From an uncultured delta proteobacterium (GTDB taxonomy: Bacteria > Myxococcota_A > UBA9160 > SMWR01): a stretch of DNA of 64,000 nt. Location: positions 416,001 to 480,000 of the forward strand of contig CAWHTE010000002.1 of the NCBI GenBank assembly GCA_963832165.1, written 5' to 3'. Each line of letters starts with the position of its first letter. Position 1 is the first letter of the stretch. The notes below the pieces were generated by a model. The model did no database searches, was not told where the DNA came from, and saw only the letters and a program-made list of their open reading frames with translations. Position numbers and translations under genes: made by a program. This document shows, piece after piece, positions 41,492-48,215 of this stretch.

Positions 41492-43255
41492 ATGGACTCC
41501 GGCCTGCTGCTCGCGTCGATCTCGACGCTCTCCTGTGTTGCGCTCGGCCTCGCGGTCGGGCTGCGGCGCGAGCACTCGATCCTCGCGAGCACCGTGCTCG
41601 CGCTGCTGATGTCGCTCGGACTCTGGAGCGGGGGGCTCGGGATCGCGAGCTGGAGCGGGCCCGGCCCGATCGCCGTCGCCGCGCTGCGGCTGGCCGCGCT
41701 GGGCGCGTTCAGCGCCACGGGCCTCTGGCTCCTGATCGCGCTGCGCCAGCGCTGGCCGATCCAGCTCGCCGGCCGCGCCGGCACCGCAGTCGCGCTCGCG
41801 CCGGCCGCACTGTTCATCGCCGCAGCGCTGTCCAACGGGAGTCACGGCCTCGCATTCCGCCGCACTCCGAGCCTCGCGGAGGGCGATTGGGCCGGGCCGC
41901 TCACGCTCCTGCTCTTCACGGTCGCGTTCGTGTGCGCGACGGCCGGGGCCGCGCTGTTCACGCACTCGGCGGTGCGTTTGTGGCGCGAGGAGGAGCGCCG
42001 GCCCGCCCTCGCGCTGCTGCTCACGATGCTGGCGCAGCCGATCGCATTCCTCGCCGACCTGCACGGAGCCGTAGGGCCTACGTACCCGCTCGCGGCTGCT
42101 GCGCTGACGCTGGGTGCGCTCGTGCTCGCGACCACGCTGCTGCGCTATTCGCTACTCCAGCCTCCGCCGCTCGGCCACCGCCAGGTGATCGAGCACCTGC
42201 GCCACGGCGTGCTGATGGCAACCGCAACCGGCGAAGTCATCGACCACAACGCCGCGGCCGAGCAGCTGCTGGGCGGCCCGCCGCGCGGGCGCACGATCGC
42301 CGATGCGATCGCGGCGCTCGTGCCGAGCGCGCAGCGCGAGCCGATCCGCGTCGCGCTCGAACGCCTCGACCTCACGCTCGAATCCCTGTCGCTCCAGATC
42401 GAAGCCGATCGCCGCCGACACCTCGAGGTGTTGGTGCGCCCGATCCCGGGCGACAGCGGCACCTCGATCGGGCAGGTCGCGATGCTGCGCGACCGGACCG
42501 CGGAGCGCAGCTATGCCGACGCGGCGCTGCGCACCCAGAAGCTCGAAGCCGTCGGAACGCTCGCGGCAGGGGTCGCGCACGAGGTGAACAACCCGCTCGC
42601 GTTCGTGCGCGCCAATCTCGGCGAGATCACGCGCCTGTCCGAGGTTGCGGCCGCGTGGCGATCGAAGCACGAGTCTCGTCTCGCCGACGAGCTCGCCGAG
42701 ATGGGCGAGCTCGCGAGCGACGCACTCGCGGGACTCGCGCGGATCCAGCGCGCGGTGTCGGACGTGCGCCGTCTCGCGGCGGCACCCGATTCGGGCTCGA
42801 GCGCCGTGTCGCTCGACGCGGTGGTGCTCGACGCGCTGCGTCTGCTCGAGCTGCGCGCGAGCGGGCGCGTCGAGATCCGCACCCACTTCGCGACGGACCT
42901 GCCGACGATCCGCGGCTCCGCGCAGCTGCTCGTGCAGGCGGTGCTCTCCCTGCTGCTCAACTCCCAGCAGGCGCTCGAGGGCACGCCCGAGCCGTGGATC
43001 GAGGTCGAGACCGGAACCGCGGGCGACTCGGAAGTGTGTGTGTACGTGCGCGACAACGGGCCTCCGATCCCGACCGCGCTGCGCGAGCGCATCCACGAGC
43101 CCTTCCTGCTCTCGGGGCGCGATCCGTACGGACGTGGCCTGGGCACGAGCCTGGCCGCGGGCATCGCGCGCGACCACGGTGGCTCGCTCAGCGCCGACCC
43201 GTGCGAGGGCGGCGCGGTGTTCGTGCTGCGCCTCGCGGCGCGGCCGGAGCTCTGA
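41492..43255 (+). CDS. 7TM-PAS sensor histidine kinase; H-box intact, ATP-binding domain degenerate
   Basis: Multi-TM N-terminus, PAS (NAAAEQLL), AHEVNNP, SLLLNSQQA, DNGPP, GRGLG. Confidence 0.85.
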   Translation: MDSGLLLASISTLSCVALGLAVGLRREHSILASTVLALLMSLGLWSGGLGIASWSGPGPIAVAALRLAALGAFSATGLWLLIALRQRWPIQLAGRAGTAVALAPAALFIAAALSNGSHGLAFRRTPSLAEGDWAGPLTLLLFTVAFVCATAGAALFTHSAVRLWREEERRPALALLLTMLAQPIAFLADLHGAVGPTYPLAAAALTLGALVLATTLLRYSLLQPPPLGHRQVIEHLRHGVLMATATGEVIDHNAAAEQLLGGPPRGRTIADAIAALVPSAQREPIRVALERLDLTLESLSLQIEADRRRHLEVLVRPIPGDSGTSIGQVAMLRDRTAERSYADAALRTQKLEAVGTLAAGVAHEVNNPLAFVRANLGEITRLSEVAAAWRSKHESRLADELAEMGELASDALAGLARIQRAVSDVRRLAAAPDSGSSAVSLDAVVLDALRLLELRASGRVEIRTHFATDLPTIRGSAQLLVQAVLSLLLNSQQALEGTPEPWIEVETGTAGDSEVCVYVRDNGPPIPTALRERIHEPFLLSGRDPYGRGLGTSLAAGIARDHGGSLSADPCEGGAVFVLRLAARPEL

Positions 43256-43257
43256 CC

Positions 43258-45093
43258 GTGTATCCCGCGATCGGTCCGGCTCTCGTCACGCTGTGCGCCT
43301 CGCTCGCGATGTCGATCTATCTGATCGCGCGCGGCCACAAGGAGCCGCTGCACTGGATGCTGCTCGGCTACCTGATCGGGATCGTGCTCTGGACCGGCGG
43401 CGTGCTGGCGCGCTTCACGGTGGACGACCCGGCACACCTCGCGGTGGCGTTGCGCGTGATCTTCACGGGGATCCTGCTCGCGTCGTCGTTCTGGCTCCTC
43501 ACTGCGTTGGCGTACGTGGGCGGGCGCGAGGCGAGATGGCGGGTGAATCCGGCTCTGGTCGTGGGCGTCGTGTCGTCGCTGTTCGCGCTCGCGCTGTTCA
43601 CGAACGACGGCCATCGCCTGTTCCTGCGCAAGATCGACTTCGCGGCGGTCGAGGCGGGGCCGCCCGCGTACGCGGGACCGGTGTTCTGGGCGTTCCTGGT
43701 CTGGGCGTACGGCTGCGTGGGCGGCGGCATGGTGCTCTACCTGCACGCGGCCGGCGCGATGCTGCGCGGCGATGCGCGGCGCCGCGGCATCCTGCTCGCG
43801 ATCGCGTCCGCGGTGCCGCCCGCGACGAGCACGCTCTACGTGTTCCAGCTGCTGCCACTGCACTACGACCTGACCCCGATCGGTCTCATGGTCGCAAGCG
43901 TCCTGCTCTCGCGCGCGATCTTCCGCTACCAGCTGCTCGAGAGCCTGCCGCTCGCGCGCGACGCCGTGCTCGCGCGCCTCGACGACGGCGTGGTGATGGC
44001 GAGCGCGAGCGGGCGGATCACGGAGTGGAATCCGGCCGCCGAGCGCATCCTGGGCGAATCGCTCCAGCGCGGCGCCGACCTCGGCGCCGCACTCTCGCAG
44101 TCGCTCGTGTGCGGTGATCCGCTCGGGCACGGCGCGGCGTCTGCCGCTGCGCTCGCGGGCGAGGTCACCGAGCGGCCGTGCGCGGTGCGCACGGCAGACG
44201 GAAGGCTGATCGAGGTGATGACGGCGGTGGTCGACGAAGGGCGCGGCGAGCCCGCAGGCCGCTTCGCGATCCTCTCCGACCGCTCCTCGATCGACCGCGC
44301 CGAGCAGCTCGCGCGTCAGACGCAGCGGCTCGAGATGGTCGGTGCGCTCGCGGGCGAAGTGGCGCTTCAGATCAACGACCCGCTCACATTCGTGCGGTCG
44401 AGCCTCATGGAGATCGAGCGGCTCGGCGCGCGCGTCGACGCCGCGGTCGCGGGGCCCGACGCCGAGCTCGCGACCGAGCTCTCCGACCTGCGCAACGTCG
44501 CGCTCGAGACGCTCGAGGGCGTCGAGCGGATCCGCCGCATCGTGGACGGCATGCGCGCGCTGTCGAGTGGCGAGCGCGTCGGGTCTGCGCCCGTCGACCT
44601 CAACGAGGTCGCGCGCGAGGCGGTGCGCATGGCACAGCTCGGCGAAGCGGGTGGCGACGGACCGTCGCTCGCGCTCGGGCTCGAGTCGCTGCCGGTCGTG
44701 TCCGGGAACGCCGACCGTCTGGTGCAGGTGGTGTTGAACCTGCTCGTCAACGCGCGCCAGGCGCTCGCGGACACGCCCGCGGCGTGCATCCATCTCCAGA
44801 CGCGCGCCTCCGACCGCGACGTCGAGCTCGAGGTGCGCGACAACGGCCCCGGGATCCCGGAAGCCGTGATGGACCGCGTGTTCGATCCGTTCTTCACCAC
44901 GCGCGGGCCCGACGAGGGCACCGGGCTGGGCCTCGCGATCGCGTTCGACATCGCGCGCGAGCACGGCGGCGTGCTCGAAGTGAGCTCGCGGCCGGGGCAG
45001 GGGGCGAGCTTCGTGCTGCGGCTACCGGCGGAGCGCCGTGAGGGTGCCGCGGCCGGGTCCGGGCGGATGGTGGAGCAGCAGGTGGAGCACTGA
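43258..45093 (+). CDS. 7TM-PAS histidine-kinase-like protein lacking the phosphoacceptor His
   Basis: Multi-TM N-terminus, PAS (WNPAAERIL), H-box reads ALQINDP, intact NLLVNARQA, DNGPG, FDPFFTT, GTGLGL. Confidence 0.85.
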   Translation: MYPAIGPALVTLCASLAMSIYLIARGHKEPLHWMLLGYLIGIVLWTGGVLARFTVDDPAHLAVALRVIFTGILLASSFWLLTALAYVGGREARWRVNPALVVGVVSSLFALALFTNDGHRLFLRKIDFAAVEAGPPAYAGPVFWAFLVWAYGCVGGGMVLYLHAAGAMLRGDARRRGILLAIASAVPPATSTLYVFQLLPLHYDLTPIGLMVASVLLSRAIFRYQLLESLPLARDAVLARLDDGVVMASASGRITEWNPAAERILGESLQRGADLGAALSQSLVCGDPLGHGAASAAALAGEVTERPCAVRTADGRLIEVMTAVVDEGRGEPAGRFAILSDRSSIDRAEQLARQTQRLEMVGALAGEVALQINDPLTFVRSSLMEIERLGARVDAAVAGPDAELATELSDLRNVALETLEGVERIRRIVDGMRALSSGERVGSAPVDLNEVAREAVRMAQLGEAGGDGPSLALGLESLPVVSGNADRLVQVVLNLLVNARQALADTPAACIHLQTRASDRDVELEVRDNGPGIPEAVMDRVFDPFFTTRGPDEGTGLGLAIAFDIAREHGGVLEVSSRPGQGASFVLRLPAERREGAAAGSGRMVEQQVEH

Positions 45094-46533
45094 GCGGTCG
45101 CGATCGCCGACGGCGCCGTCGCCGTCGAGGTCGGAGCCCGCGAGGTGGGTCTTCAGACCGAGCGAGCTCTCGAAGCGCGCCAGGTCGGAAAGCCCGACCA
45201 CGCCGTCCTGGTCGAAGTCGCCGTCGCACCGGTCGCCGAAGCCGTCGCCGTCGGCATCGCGCTGGTCGGCGTTGGGCTGCTCGCGGCAGGTGTCGAGCCG
45301 ATCGGGCACGCCATCGCCGTCGCTGTCGGCGACCGGCGCGAACGGCCGCGCGACCTGCATCAGCGGATCGCCCACGTACACGTTCATCCACGAGAGATAG
45401 GGAATGTTGCGGTAGAAGGCTTCGATCGCGGGCGCGCCGCGCGCATAGTCGACGAGCAGCATCGGCCGCGCGACCCCCGACAGCATCGGCTCGTCGACGT
45501 GCCCTGCAACGCCTGCGACACCGAGATGGATCAGGTCGGCAGCGAGCGATTGCCCATAGAGGTCGGGCGCGCGCGTGAAGGTACGCGCATCGGTGCTCAC
45601 GAGCGTGACGGCGATCGAGCGCGGCGCGAAGCGACCCGGAACGCGACGTCCGTCGATCTCGCCGAAGTAGGGCGCGGGCAGATGGTTGACGTCGTTGCTG
45701 CCCCACGAGGCGTAGCCCGCGATCGCGTCGACGCCCGTGACGAAGCCAGGCGCGGTGTCGTGGAGCACCGACGAGCCGAGCGCACCGAGCGCGGCGGCGG
45801 CAGGGCGCAGCAGGAGCACGTTGCCCGCGTGGTAGCCGTTCGACTGGTTGGGATTCTCGTCGATCACGAACGTGCCGCGCGGATCCGGGGCCACCGCGTT
45901 CGCGAGCAGCGCGGCGACGTCGCGCGGCACGCCGCTCTTCGGGTCGGACGCGTCCTGGTAGCCCGTGATTCGCGCCACGAGGTAGCGCAGCGGCGCCTTC
46001 GGGTAGCGATCGCGCCACGCGTCGAACGGCAGGCTCGAACGGAAGTAGGGATTGGCGGCGCCCGCGGTCCCCCCGCGTCCCTCGAGAGGCGAGAACAGCA
46101 CGGCGAGCTCGGCGTCGACCGCGGCGGTCTGGCGCTGGTCGACGGGCACGCCCTGGTCGTCGTTCGTGACCCGCAGCGGGACGCCCTTGGTGGTGACGAG
46201 GATCCGGATCTTGCCGGCCGGGTCGTTCTTGCGCAGGAAGCGCGCCACGGGATCTCGCACGCGTTCGATGTAGCCCGTGCGGTCGATGCGCTCGTGCACG
46301 GGCGTCTGCATCAAGGGGTCGTCGCCGAGCGGAAGCTGCAGATGGACCACGTTCTGCGCAGGCACGTCGCGCTGGCGCCGATAGGCCTCCCCGATCGCCA
46401 CCGATGTGGCGCTCGCGTCGTTCACGATCACGAGCACCTCGGGGTGGCCGGGCCCGGCGCGCGCGGCCGAGGCGAGCAGGGCAAGTGCGAGCCCGATAGA
46501 ATACGCGCCCGCCGCGAAGCGCCCTGCAGACAT
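45022..46533 (-). CDS. TIGR03790-like exported protein with C-terminal Ca-binding (TSP3/dockerin-like) repeats
   Basis: Signal peptide; VLVIVN, KGVPLR, VDAELA, NPYF, LVARI, SWGSND, GHVDEP, LSWM..VGDPL; DSDGDG/DADGDG/DFDQDG repeats. Confidence 0.75.
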   Translation of the reverse strand: MSAGRFAAGAYSIGLALALLASAARAGPGHPEVLVIVNDASATSVAIGEAYRRQRDVPAQNVVHLQLPLGDDPLMQTPVHERIDRTGYIERVRDPVARFLRKNDPAGKIRILVTTKGVPLRVTNDDQGVPVDQRQTAAVDAELAVLFSPLEGRGGTAGAANPYFRSSLPFDAWRDRYPKAPLRYLVARITGYQDASDPKSGVPRDVAALLANAVAPDPRGTFVIDENPNQSNGYHAGNVLLLRPAAAALGALGSSVLHDTAPGFVTGVDAIAGYASWGSNDVNHLPAPYFGEIDGRRVPGRFAPRSIAVTLVSTDARTFTRAPDLYGQSLAADLIHLGVAGVAGHVDEPMLSGVARPMLLVDYARGAPAIEAFYRNIPYLSWMNVYVGDPLMQVARPFAPVADSDGDGVPDRLDTCREQPNADQRDADGDGFGDRCDGDFDQDGVVGLSDLARFESSLGLKTHLAGSDLDGDGAVGDRDRSVLHLLLHHPPGPGRGTLTALRR

Positions 46534-46542
46534 GGAGTCATT

Positions 46543-48215
<1,673 letters not shown>

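What the first reader, a model, noticed from the sequence alone, without database searches (positions are those of the whole stretch)
41492..45093. Tandem histidine kinases with complementary defects: candidate obligate heterodimeric 'split' sensor kinase
Seen: two adjacent paralogues, 2 bp apart, with the same 7TM-PAS-DHp-CA layout. HK1 keeps the H-box (AHEVNNP, His codon 42578), but its catalytic boxes are eroded: N-box SLLLN, G1 DNGPP instead of DxGxG, F-box HEPFLLS, G2 GRGLGT. HK2 has textbook N/G1/F/G2 boxes (NLLVNA, DNGPG, FDPFFTT, GTGLGL), but its H-box reads ALQINDP, with His replaced by Leu (CTT at 44365) and neighbouring residues also changed, so a single base error is unlikely. Established: class I kinases are dimers and many phosphorylate in trans. 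Inference: HK2 supplies ATP catalysis and HK1 the phosphoacceptor, giving an AND-gate receptor with two sensor domains. No response regulator gene is nearby.
Basis: partly seen in the sequence, partly recalled or inferred. Interest (0 to 1): 0.85.

Follow-up and report, generated by a model that had tools for sequence, protein, structure and literature searches.

The report
Two half-broken sensor kinases, paired
Two neighbouring sister genes for membrane sensor kinases in a Myxococcota bacterium have each lost the half of the reaction that the other keeps, and related bacteria repeat this split, so the two proteins probably work only as one two-protein kinase.

Summary
Observation confirmed. 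HK1 (41492-43255) keeps the full His-Glu-x-x-Asn box, but its ATP domain is eroded. HK2 (43258-45093) has an intact ATP domain, with His→Leu, Glu→Gln and Asn→Asp. This is not error or plain decay. In orthologue groups defined on the sensor half alone, the box is intact in 40 of 40 HK1 and 1 of 47 HK2, and the ATP motifs in 9 of 40 HK1 and 46 of 47 HK2. A sister subfamily repeats the split independently. Of 24 complete tandem pairs, 17 are complementary, always in the same order, and none lost the same function twice. All 121 single copies keep His. Best reading (0.7): HK2 phosphorylates HK1's His in trans in a heterodimer. No activity was measured. Caveats: this HK1 keeps several ATP-binding residues; His itself survives in 9 of 12 distant HK2 lineages; lone His+/ATP-dead copies exist; HK1's sensor signature is relaxed, so the AND gate is unsupported. 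Precedents: FasB/FasC, CheA3/CheA4. The scan noted similar pairs in five other genomes.

The parts
41492..43255 (+). HK1, 587 aa: HisKA_7TM-PAS-DHp-CA; phosphoacceptor/output subunit (His kept, ATP domain eroded)
41519..42160 (+). HK1 7TM region (residues 10-223), seven helices, ancestral signature partly lost
   Evidence: Pfam 41.3 bits; model helices
42191..42508 (+). HK1 PAS domain (234-339)
42578..42592 (+). HK1 H box His363-Glu-Val-Asn-Asn367, intact in 40 of 40 orthologues
42920..43237 (+). HK1 CA domain (477-582): N1 Asn→Ser486, G1 last Gly→Pro525, F box and G2 changed; N490, D521 and GxGxG kept
43256..43257 (+). 2-bp gap between HK1 stop and HK2 GTG; stop and start touch or overlap in all 6 pairs of this subfamily
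43258..45093 (+). HK2, 611 aa: HisKA_7TM-PAS-DHp-CA; sensor/catalytic subunit (no His, ATP domain intact)
43282..43950 (+). HK2 7TM region (9-231), ancestral signature kept
   Evidence: Pfam 112.8 bits
43975..44283 (+). HK2 PAS domain (240-342)
44365..44379 (+). HK2 broken H box: Leu370 (His site), Gln371 (H+1), Asp374 (H+4)
44704..45033 (+). HK2 CA domain (483-592) with canonical N, G1, F and G2 boxes

Best explanation
An orphan 7TM-PAS histidine kinase was duplicated in tandem and the two copies divided the chemistry. Shown: both are full-length and translationally coupled. HK1 keeps the His, the H+1 Glu, the H+4 Asn and the whole response-regulator docking face of helix 1. HK2 keeps the ATP site and the ancestral sensor. 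Inferred: they form a heterodimer through the DHp bundle; a signal at HK2's 7TM region switches HK2's ATP domain onto His363 of HK1 (trans phosphorylation); HK1 passes the phosphate to a response regulator encoded elsewhere and probably also dephosphorylates it. An HK2 homodimer has no acceptor. An HK1 homodimer could act only as a phosphatase or phosphotransferase.
For: (1) Reciprocal conservation in groups defined on the sensor half alone: H box 40/40 HK1, 1/47 HK2, 88/90 other relatives; ATP motifs 9/40, 46/47, 84/90. After thinning to <60% identity, with a stricter G2 test: box 13/13 and 1/12, ATP core 4/13 and 12/12. (2) Losses are parallel. His is replaced by Leu, Phe, Arg or Glu, with 7 His/non-His changes on the HK2 tree. 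On the HK1 tree the second N-box Asn changes 5 times and the lid 4 times, including whole deletions. (3) In 193 genomes of the order the two clades occur only as an adjacent pair, 6 of 6; 4 of the 5 complete pairs are complementary. (4) A separate sister subfamily shows 13 complementary pairs among 19, in the same order, from at least two further origins. (5) No pair lost the same function twice; 78 of 78 and 43 of 43 single copies keep His. (6) The nearest solved kinase by sequence, ZraS, is described as trans-acting (PMC12314577, passages). (7) The complex model scores 0.67 against a best control of 0.01, contacts agree in at least 85% of runs, partner pLDDT at least 79; the mark was reached by 116 of 157 solved and 2 of 215 mismatched pairs. 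This is weak support, because kinase dimers are textbook structures.
Against: No activity was measured. This HK1 keeps N490, D521 and GxGxG, and 9 of 40 orthologues pass the ATP-motif test, G006 among them. His is kept in 18 of 47 HK2 rows and 9 of 12 distant lineages, His+Glu in 8 of 12; the near-universal HK2 change is at H+4. His+/ATP-dead relatives persist with no adjacent partner in G021, G041 and G181. An intact kinase with nearly the same helix-1 residues lies elsewhere in this genome and in 4 of the 5 other pair-bearing genomes, so phosphate could reach HK1 by another road. Three sister-subfamily pairs took a non-complementary path. The G044 clade of HK2 has lost the first N-box Asn. 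Cis versus trans was not tested for this family. Homodimers were not modelled.
Confidence: 0.7

Rival explanations
1. HK1 works like RedE or PhyK. It takes phosphate from, or removes it from, a response regulator shared with the genome's other orphan kinases. HK2 is a His-less, nucleotide-binding sensor that regulates HK1 (DivL-like) without phosphorylating it.
For: Lone His+/ATP-dead relatives exist in two lineages. An intact paralogue has the same docking residues. HK1 keeps the H+4 Asn, the phosphatase residue (PMC3510030, abstract). PhyK keeps a conserved CA domain yet is not a kinase (PMC5964349, passages). RedE is a myxobacterial precedent (PMC2755868, abstract).
Against: It does not explain why HK2's whole catalytic set is held as tightly as in working single kinases (51 of 53 conserved CA positions in this copy). 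Nor why His is lost only where the neighbour has lost its ATP site (14 of 14), or why the same pairing arose at least three times.
Confidence: 0.17
2. HK1 in this genome is still a slow but self-sufficient kinase, and HK2 is a pseudokinase that tunes or sequesters it.
For: N490, D521 and the G2 glycines are kept; 9 of 40 orthologues pass the ATP-motif test.
Against: The first N-box Asn pairs with the H+1 Glu, and its change is kinase-deficient in CpxA (PMC3904827, passages). The last G1 Gly is a Pro. Four close orthologues (57-63% identical) lack the lid altogether. Lid identity within the HK1 clade is 0.35, against 0.87 in HK2.
Confidence: 0.08
3. Sequence error, or ordinary decay of a redundant duplicate.
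For: CTT is one base from CAT. Several database rows from these loci are frameshifted.
Against: Leu in 18 of 47 orthologues. Both frames are full length, and the domains each copy keeps are as conserved as in single kinases or more so.
Confidence: 0.03

Closest known systems
FasB/FasC/FasA of Streptococcus pyogenes (PMC12675982; read: abstract, Results parts 1-2 of 3, Discussion part 1 of 2; supplements not seen)
   Same: Two adjacent full-length membrane kinases. Two-hybrid data show heterodimers and no homodimers; FasC His246 is needed and FasC's ATP domain is dispensable; the authors propose that FasB phosphorylates FasC.
   Different: ComE-type system with its regulator in the operon; FasB still has His residues and cis phosphorylation was not excluded; the sensor is on the His subunit. 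Here the family is HisKA_7TM-PAS, the pair is orphan, the His is gone from the sequence, and the conserved sensor sits on the ATP subunit.
CheA3/CheA4 split kinase of Rhodobacter sphaeroides (PMC3591291, passages)
   Same: Acceptor and ATP domain on different proteins; neither autophosphorylates alone; the free acceptor is the phosphatase.
   Different: Class II (CheA/Hpt) proteins that lack whole domains. Here both keep every domain and lost residues.
Rv0600c-Rv0601c-TcrA of Mycobacterium tuberculosis (PMC3544749, one passage; the domain split is recalled, not read)
   Same: Two kinase genes serve one regulator.
   Different: As recalled, small proteins each with one domain, not duplicated full-length sensors; regulator adjacent.
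RedE (Myxococcus xanthus, PMC2755868, abstract) and PhyK/LovK (Caulobacter, PMC5964349, passages)
   Same: His-bearing kinase-like proteins that do not autophosphorylate, as inferred for HK1.
   Different: They are loaded from a receiver domain, not by a His-less sister kinase; no receiver is nearby here.
DivL pseudokinase (PMC4211667, abstract and section headings)
   Same: Kinase fold without kinase or phosphatase activity, like HK2's DHp.
   Different: DivL uses its regulator-docking face; HK2's docking face is the part that drifts.

Membership tests
Class I HisKA sensor kinase (self-sufficient): HK1 | Phosphoacceptor His with H+1 acid | tested here: met
   His363-Glu364
Class I HisKA sensor kinase (self-sufficient): HK1 | Intact N, G1, F and G2 boxes | tested here: not met
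   N1, the last G1 Gly and the F box are changed; N2, the G1 Asp and GxGxG are kept
Class I HisKA sensor kinase (self-sufficient): HK2 | Phosphoacceptor His with H+1 acid | tested here: not met
   Leu370-Gln371; no HisKA hit
Class I HisKA sensor kinase (self-sufficient): HK2 | Intact N, G1, F and G2 boxes | tested here: met
HisKA_7TM (PF16927) sensor kinases | N-terminal 7TM domain above the Pfam cut-off | tested here: met
   41.3 and 112.8 bits, cut-off 28.6
Split kinase (CheA3/CheA4 sense) | Acceptor and catalytic domains on separate polypeptides, each lacking the other domain | tested here: not met
   Both proteins carry DHp and CA folds; the split is by residue loss
Split kinase (CheA3/CheA4 sense) | No autophosphorylation alone, phosphorylation when mixed | not testable with these tools
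   needs an assay
FasBC-type heterodimeric kinase | Two adjacent co-encoded full-length kinases, one giving His and one giving ATP | tested here: met
   at sequence level only
FasBC-type heterodimeric kinase | Heterodimer forms, homodimers do not | tested here: inconclusive
   heterodimer model passes, but homodimers were not modelled and the core residues are alike in both copies
FasBC-type heterodimeric kinase | Cognate ComE-like regulator in the locus | tested here: not met
   nearest receiver about 135 kb away
Trans-autophosphorylating kinases | Loop handedness that puts the CA domain on the partner's His | tested here: inconclusive
   nearest solved relative ZraS is described as trans; model contacts fit a cross-dimer CA position, but HK2's CA is not confidently placed

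The most novel reading that the evidence does not exclude
Tandem duplicates of HisKA_7TM kinases in this order are repeatedly driven from homodimer to obligate heterodimer by the same route. The downstream copy first loses the regulator-facing H+4 residue, the upstream copy loses its ATP site, and then the downstream His goes. Intact, intermediate and fully split pairs all survive. The result is a switch in which the heterodimer is the only kinase and the free His subunit the only phosphatase, and together with the scan's notes on other phyla it would be a common but unrecognised class of two-protein sensor kinases that annotation calls two ordinary kinases.
Probability: 0.4. Interest if true: 0.85.

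Novelty: new variant of a known kind. Interest (0 to 1): 0.7.

Why it matters
Complementing a His mutant with an ATP-site mutant is the classic laboratory test for trans phosphorylation (recalled). Here evolution appears to have made that pair, at least three times in one order. It offers a graded natural series (intact pair, partial, fully split) for a long-standing question: how a homodimer becomes an obligate heterodimer after duplication, and whether that is adaptive or neutral (PMC11066126, abstract). It would give the FasBC model a cleaner case in which the His is absent from the sequence. It also warns that such genes are annotated as two normal kinases.

Tried and rejected
Cluster look-up gave no accessions, so six further database pairs rest only on equal contig lengths; all six are complementary, but they are not in the count of 24. 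Co-divergence of partners (Mantel rho 0.96) is expected from co-inheritance and was not used as evidence of binding. No heterodimer-specific charge pairs were evident in the 25 best model contacts. An idea that the His-less copy always gains an acid at H+4 failed in part: 9 of 13 in the sister subfamily. A single origin of HK1 plus HK2 is not rejected (p-AU 0.51) but not shown; a fast tree had separated them. The sigma-70 and terminator scan found nothing. The cognate regulator was not identified. Expression and read-level checks remain open. Rows dropped before counts: 21 of 168 candidate proteins for short sensor matches, then rows outside 520-660 aa or duplicating a genome row; P0041 and P0137 (frameshifted), the G006 HK2 (cut by contig end), L055 (G1 segment missing), and P0194 and P0177 (treated as copies of the G010 pair; only P0194 was checked); one frameshift fragment and two unrelated kinases; two frameshift fragments. 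Sister-subfamily sampling covered 60 fetched regions plus L003, chosen from the 150 listed of 214 matches, so its counts are not a census. Literature: searches found no paper on such pairs in HisKA_7TM kinases; the library holds open-licence papers only.
Full report
Observation. Both genes are as described. HK1 spans 41492-43255 (587 aa) and HK2 43258-45093 (611 aa), two bases apart. Both are HisKA_7TM-PAS-DHp-CA proteins, 33% identical. HK1 has His363-Glu-Val-Asn-Asn. HK2 has Leu370-Gln-Ile-Asn-Asp, so it lacks the His, the H+1 acid needed for kinase activity and the H+4 Asn needed for phosphatase activity (roles from PMC3510030, abstract). HK2's ATP boxes are canonical. HK1's are only partly eroded: the first N-box Asn, the last G1 Gly, the F box and two G2 residues are changed, but the second N-box Asn, the G1 Asp and GxGxG remain. 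The nearest receiver domain is about 135 kb away. A fragment 82% identical to HK1 is labelled Myxococcota.

Context. The pair lies between a TPR gene and an Lhr-type helicase on one side and a TIGR03790 gene and ettA on the other. Many relatives carry one intact kinase at this site. The 29 proteins scanned (the pair and representative neighbours) matched no response-regulator model among the hits shown.

Orthologues. I collected 183 related proteins and built trees on the sensor half only, so that groups do not depend on the motifs counted. HK1-like and HK2-like proteins form two clades (100/98 and 93/93 in a 48-row tree). One origin for both is not rejected (p-AU 0.51). With six rows dropped (listed under Tried and rejected), the His-Glu-x-x-Asn/Thr box is intact in 40 of 40 HK1, 1 of 47 HK2 and 88 of 90 other relatives. 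The ATP motifs (second N-box Asn, DxGxG, PF[FY], xxGxG) are intact in 9 of 40, 46 of 47 and 84 of 90. After thinning to under 60% identity, and with a stricter G2 test, the box counts are 13 of 13 and 1 of 12, and the ATP core 4 of 13 and 12 of 12. Within-clade identity over H to H+12 is 0.95 in HK1 and 0.61 in HK2; over the ATP lid it is 0.35 and 0.87. The losses are parallel: Leu, Phe, Arg or Glu at the His site, and several separate lid deletions in HK1. That is relaxed selection on one half of each protein with strong conservation of the other half.

A qualification. His itself is kept in 18 of 47 HK2 rows and in 9 of 12 distant lineages. The near-universal HK2 change is at H+4. Full His loss is a late, repeated step, and the window's pair is near the end of the series.

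Pairs in genomes. Among 193 genomes of the order, the two clades occur together and adjacent in 6 genomes and were not found apart. G000, G003, G005 and G044 are complementary, G010 is intact in both copies, and G006 is cut by a contig end. Stop and start touch or overlap in all six. All 78 single copies of this subfamily keep His, and 73 pass the ATP test.

Independent repeats. While checking paralogues I found a second HisKA_7TM subfamily, separated from the first by a long, fully supported branch. Of 19 tandem pairs found there, 13 are complementary (His gone in 12), 3 are intact, and 3 have an intact upstream copy with an eroded downstream one. The upstream copy in G046 is frameshifted in the assembly; its ATP domain in the other frame shows the same erosion as in G018. 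One complementary clade is nested among intact pairs, so the split arose at least twice there. All 43 single copies keep His. Over both subfamilies, 17 of 24 complete pairs are complementary, always with the His copy upstream; none has lost the same function twice; and all 14 His-less copies sit beside a His+/ATP-broken partner. These genomes are related, so no p-value is given, and the second subfamily was sampled, not censused.

Mechanism. The simplest account is a heterodimer in which HK2's ATP domain phosphorylates His363 of HK1, and HK1 alone meets the response regulator. This needs trans phosphorylation, which is not universal and depends on loop handedness (PMC3904827, passages; PMC5956149, passages). 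The closest solved kinase by sequence is ZraS, described as trans-acting (PMC12314577, passages). The heterodimer model scored 0.67 against a best control of 0.01; the mark was reached by 116 of 157 solved and 2 of 215 mismatched pairs, contacts agreed in at least 85% of runs, and partner pLDDT was at least 79. It shows a DHp bundle with HK1's CA domain touching HK2, whose helix before the His site is in continuous contact; I infer a trans layout from that. HK2's CA domain is not confidently placed, homodimers were not modelled, and kinase dimers are textbook structures, so this is likeness, not proof.

The AND gate. Of 20 7TM positions conserved in single copies, HK2 orthologues keep 0.91 and HK1 orthologues 0.60 (one position may be a one-column shift). 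The HK1 residues there are variable. In this subfamily HK2 looks like sensor plus engine and HK1 like the output subunit. In the sister subfamily the difference is small (0.77 against 0.69), so two inputs remain possible there.

Against the reading. His+/ATP-dead relatives persist without an adjacent partner in G021, G041 and G181. An intact kinase with nearly the same docking helix exists at C2:170699-172381 of this genome and in 4 of the 5 other pair-bearing genomes. HK1 could therefore act as a phosphatase or phosphotransferase in a network of orphan kinases, like RedE (PMC2755868, abstract) or PhyK (PMC5964349, passages). That rival leaves unexplained why HK2 keeps 51 of 53 conserved CA positions and why His is lost only next to an ATP-broken copy.

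Known systems and novelty. FasB/FasC is the closest: a heterodimer in which one His is essential and that subunit's ATP domain is dispensable (PMC12675982; supplements not seen, and they bear on the FasB His data). CheA3/CheA4 is the classic split kinase (PMC3591291, passages). The working principle is therefore known. Searches found no description of reciprocal residue-level splitting in full-length HisKA_7TM paralogues, nor of its repeated origin. The scan's notes list similar pairs in four other genomes by words and one Myxococcota pair resembling the sister subfamily; none resembled this locus closely. These notes are unchecked and did not set the score.

Verdict. Real, conserved and recurrent: a new variant of a known kind. 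Trans-acting heterodimer 0.7; two-sensor AND gate about 0.25; interest 0.7.

Noticed in passing
L355:2123-5718 (G018) and 18 further loci (L356, L390-L397, L405, L408, L412, L415, L421, L423, L425, L445, L446): A sister HisKA_7TM subfamily with 19 tandem pairs: 13 complementary in the same order as the window's pair, 3 intact, 3 other.
   Followed up: yes
L394, L396, L397 (G034, G066, G064): Pairs with an intact upstream kinase and a downstream copy that keeps His but has an eroded ATP lid: a different fate of the same duplication.
   Followed up: partly
L292:8018-9781 (G021), L293:10953-12710 (G041), L444:2278-4182 (G181): Lone 7TM-PAS proteins with an intact H box and a dead ATP domain, with no adjacent kinase; candidate phosphatases or phosphotransferases.
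   Followed up: partly
L003:418-2196 (G000 C2:170699-172381): A third, intact, orphan HisKA_7TM kinase with almost the same regulator-docking helix as HK1; several orphan kinases of this order may share one regulator.
   Followed up: partly
window 45022-46851 (-): TIGR03790-family gene with thrombospondin-3 repeats whose ORF overlaps the 3' end of HK2 by 72 bases on the opposite strand; TIGR03790 genes and ettA recur beside the kinase in relatives.
   Followed up: partly
P0053 (database protein, 698 aa): Matches HK1 over 65% and HK2 over 28% of their lengths; probably a frameshift join of the two genes, possibly a real fusion.
   Followed up: no
L055:1-1785: Metagenome HK2 orthologue with the G1 segment missing in frame; may be an assembly error.
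   Followed up: no
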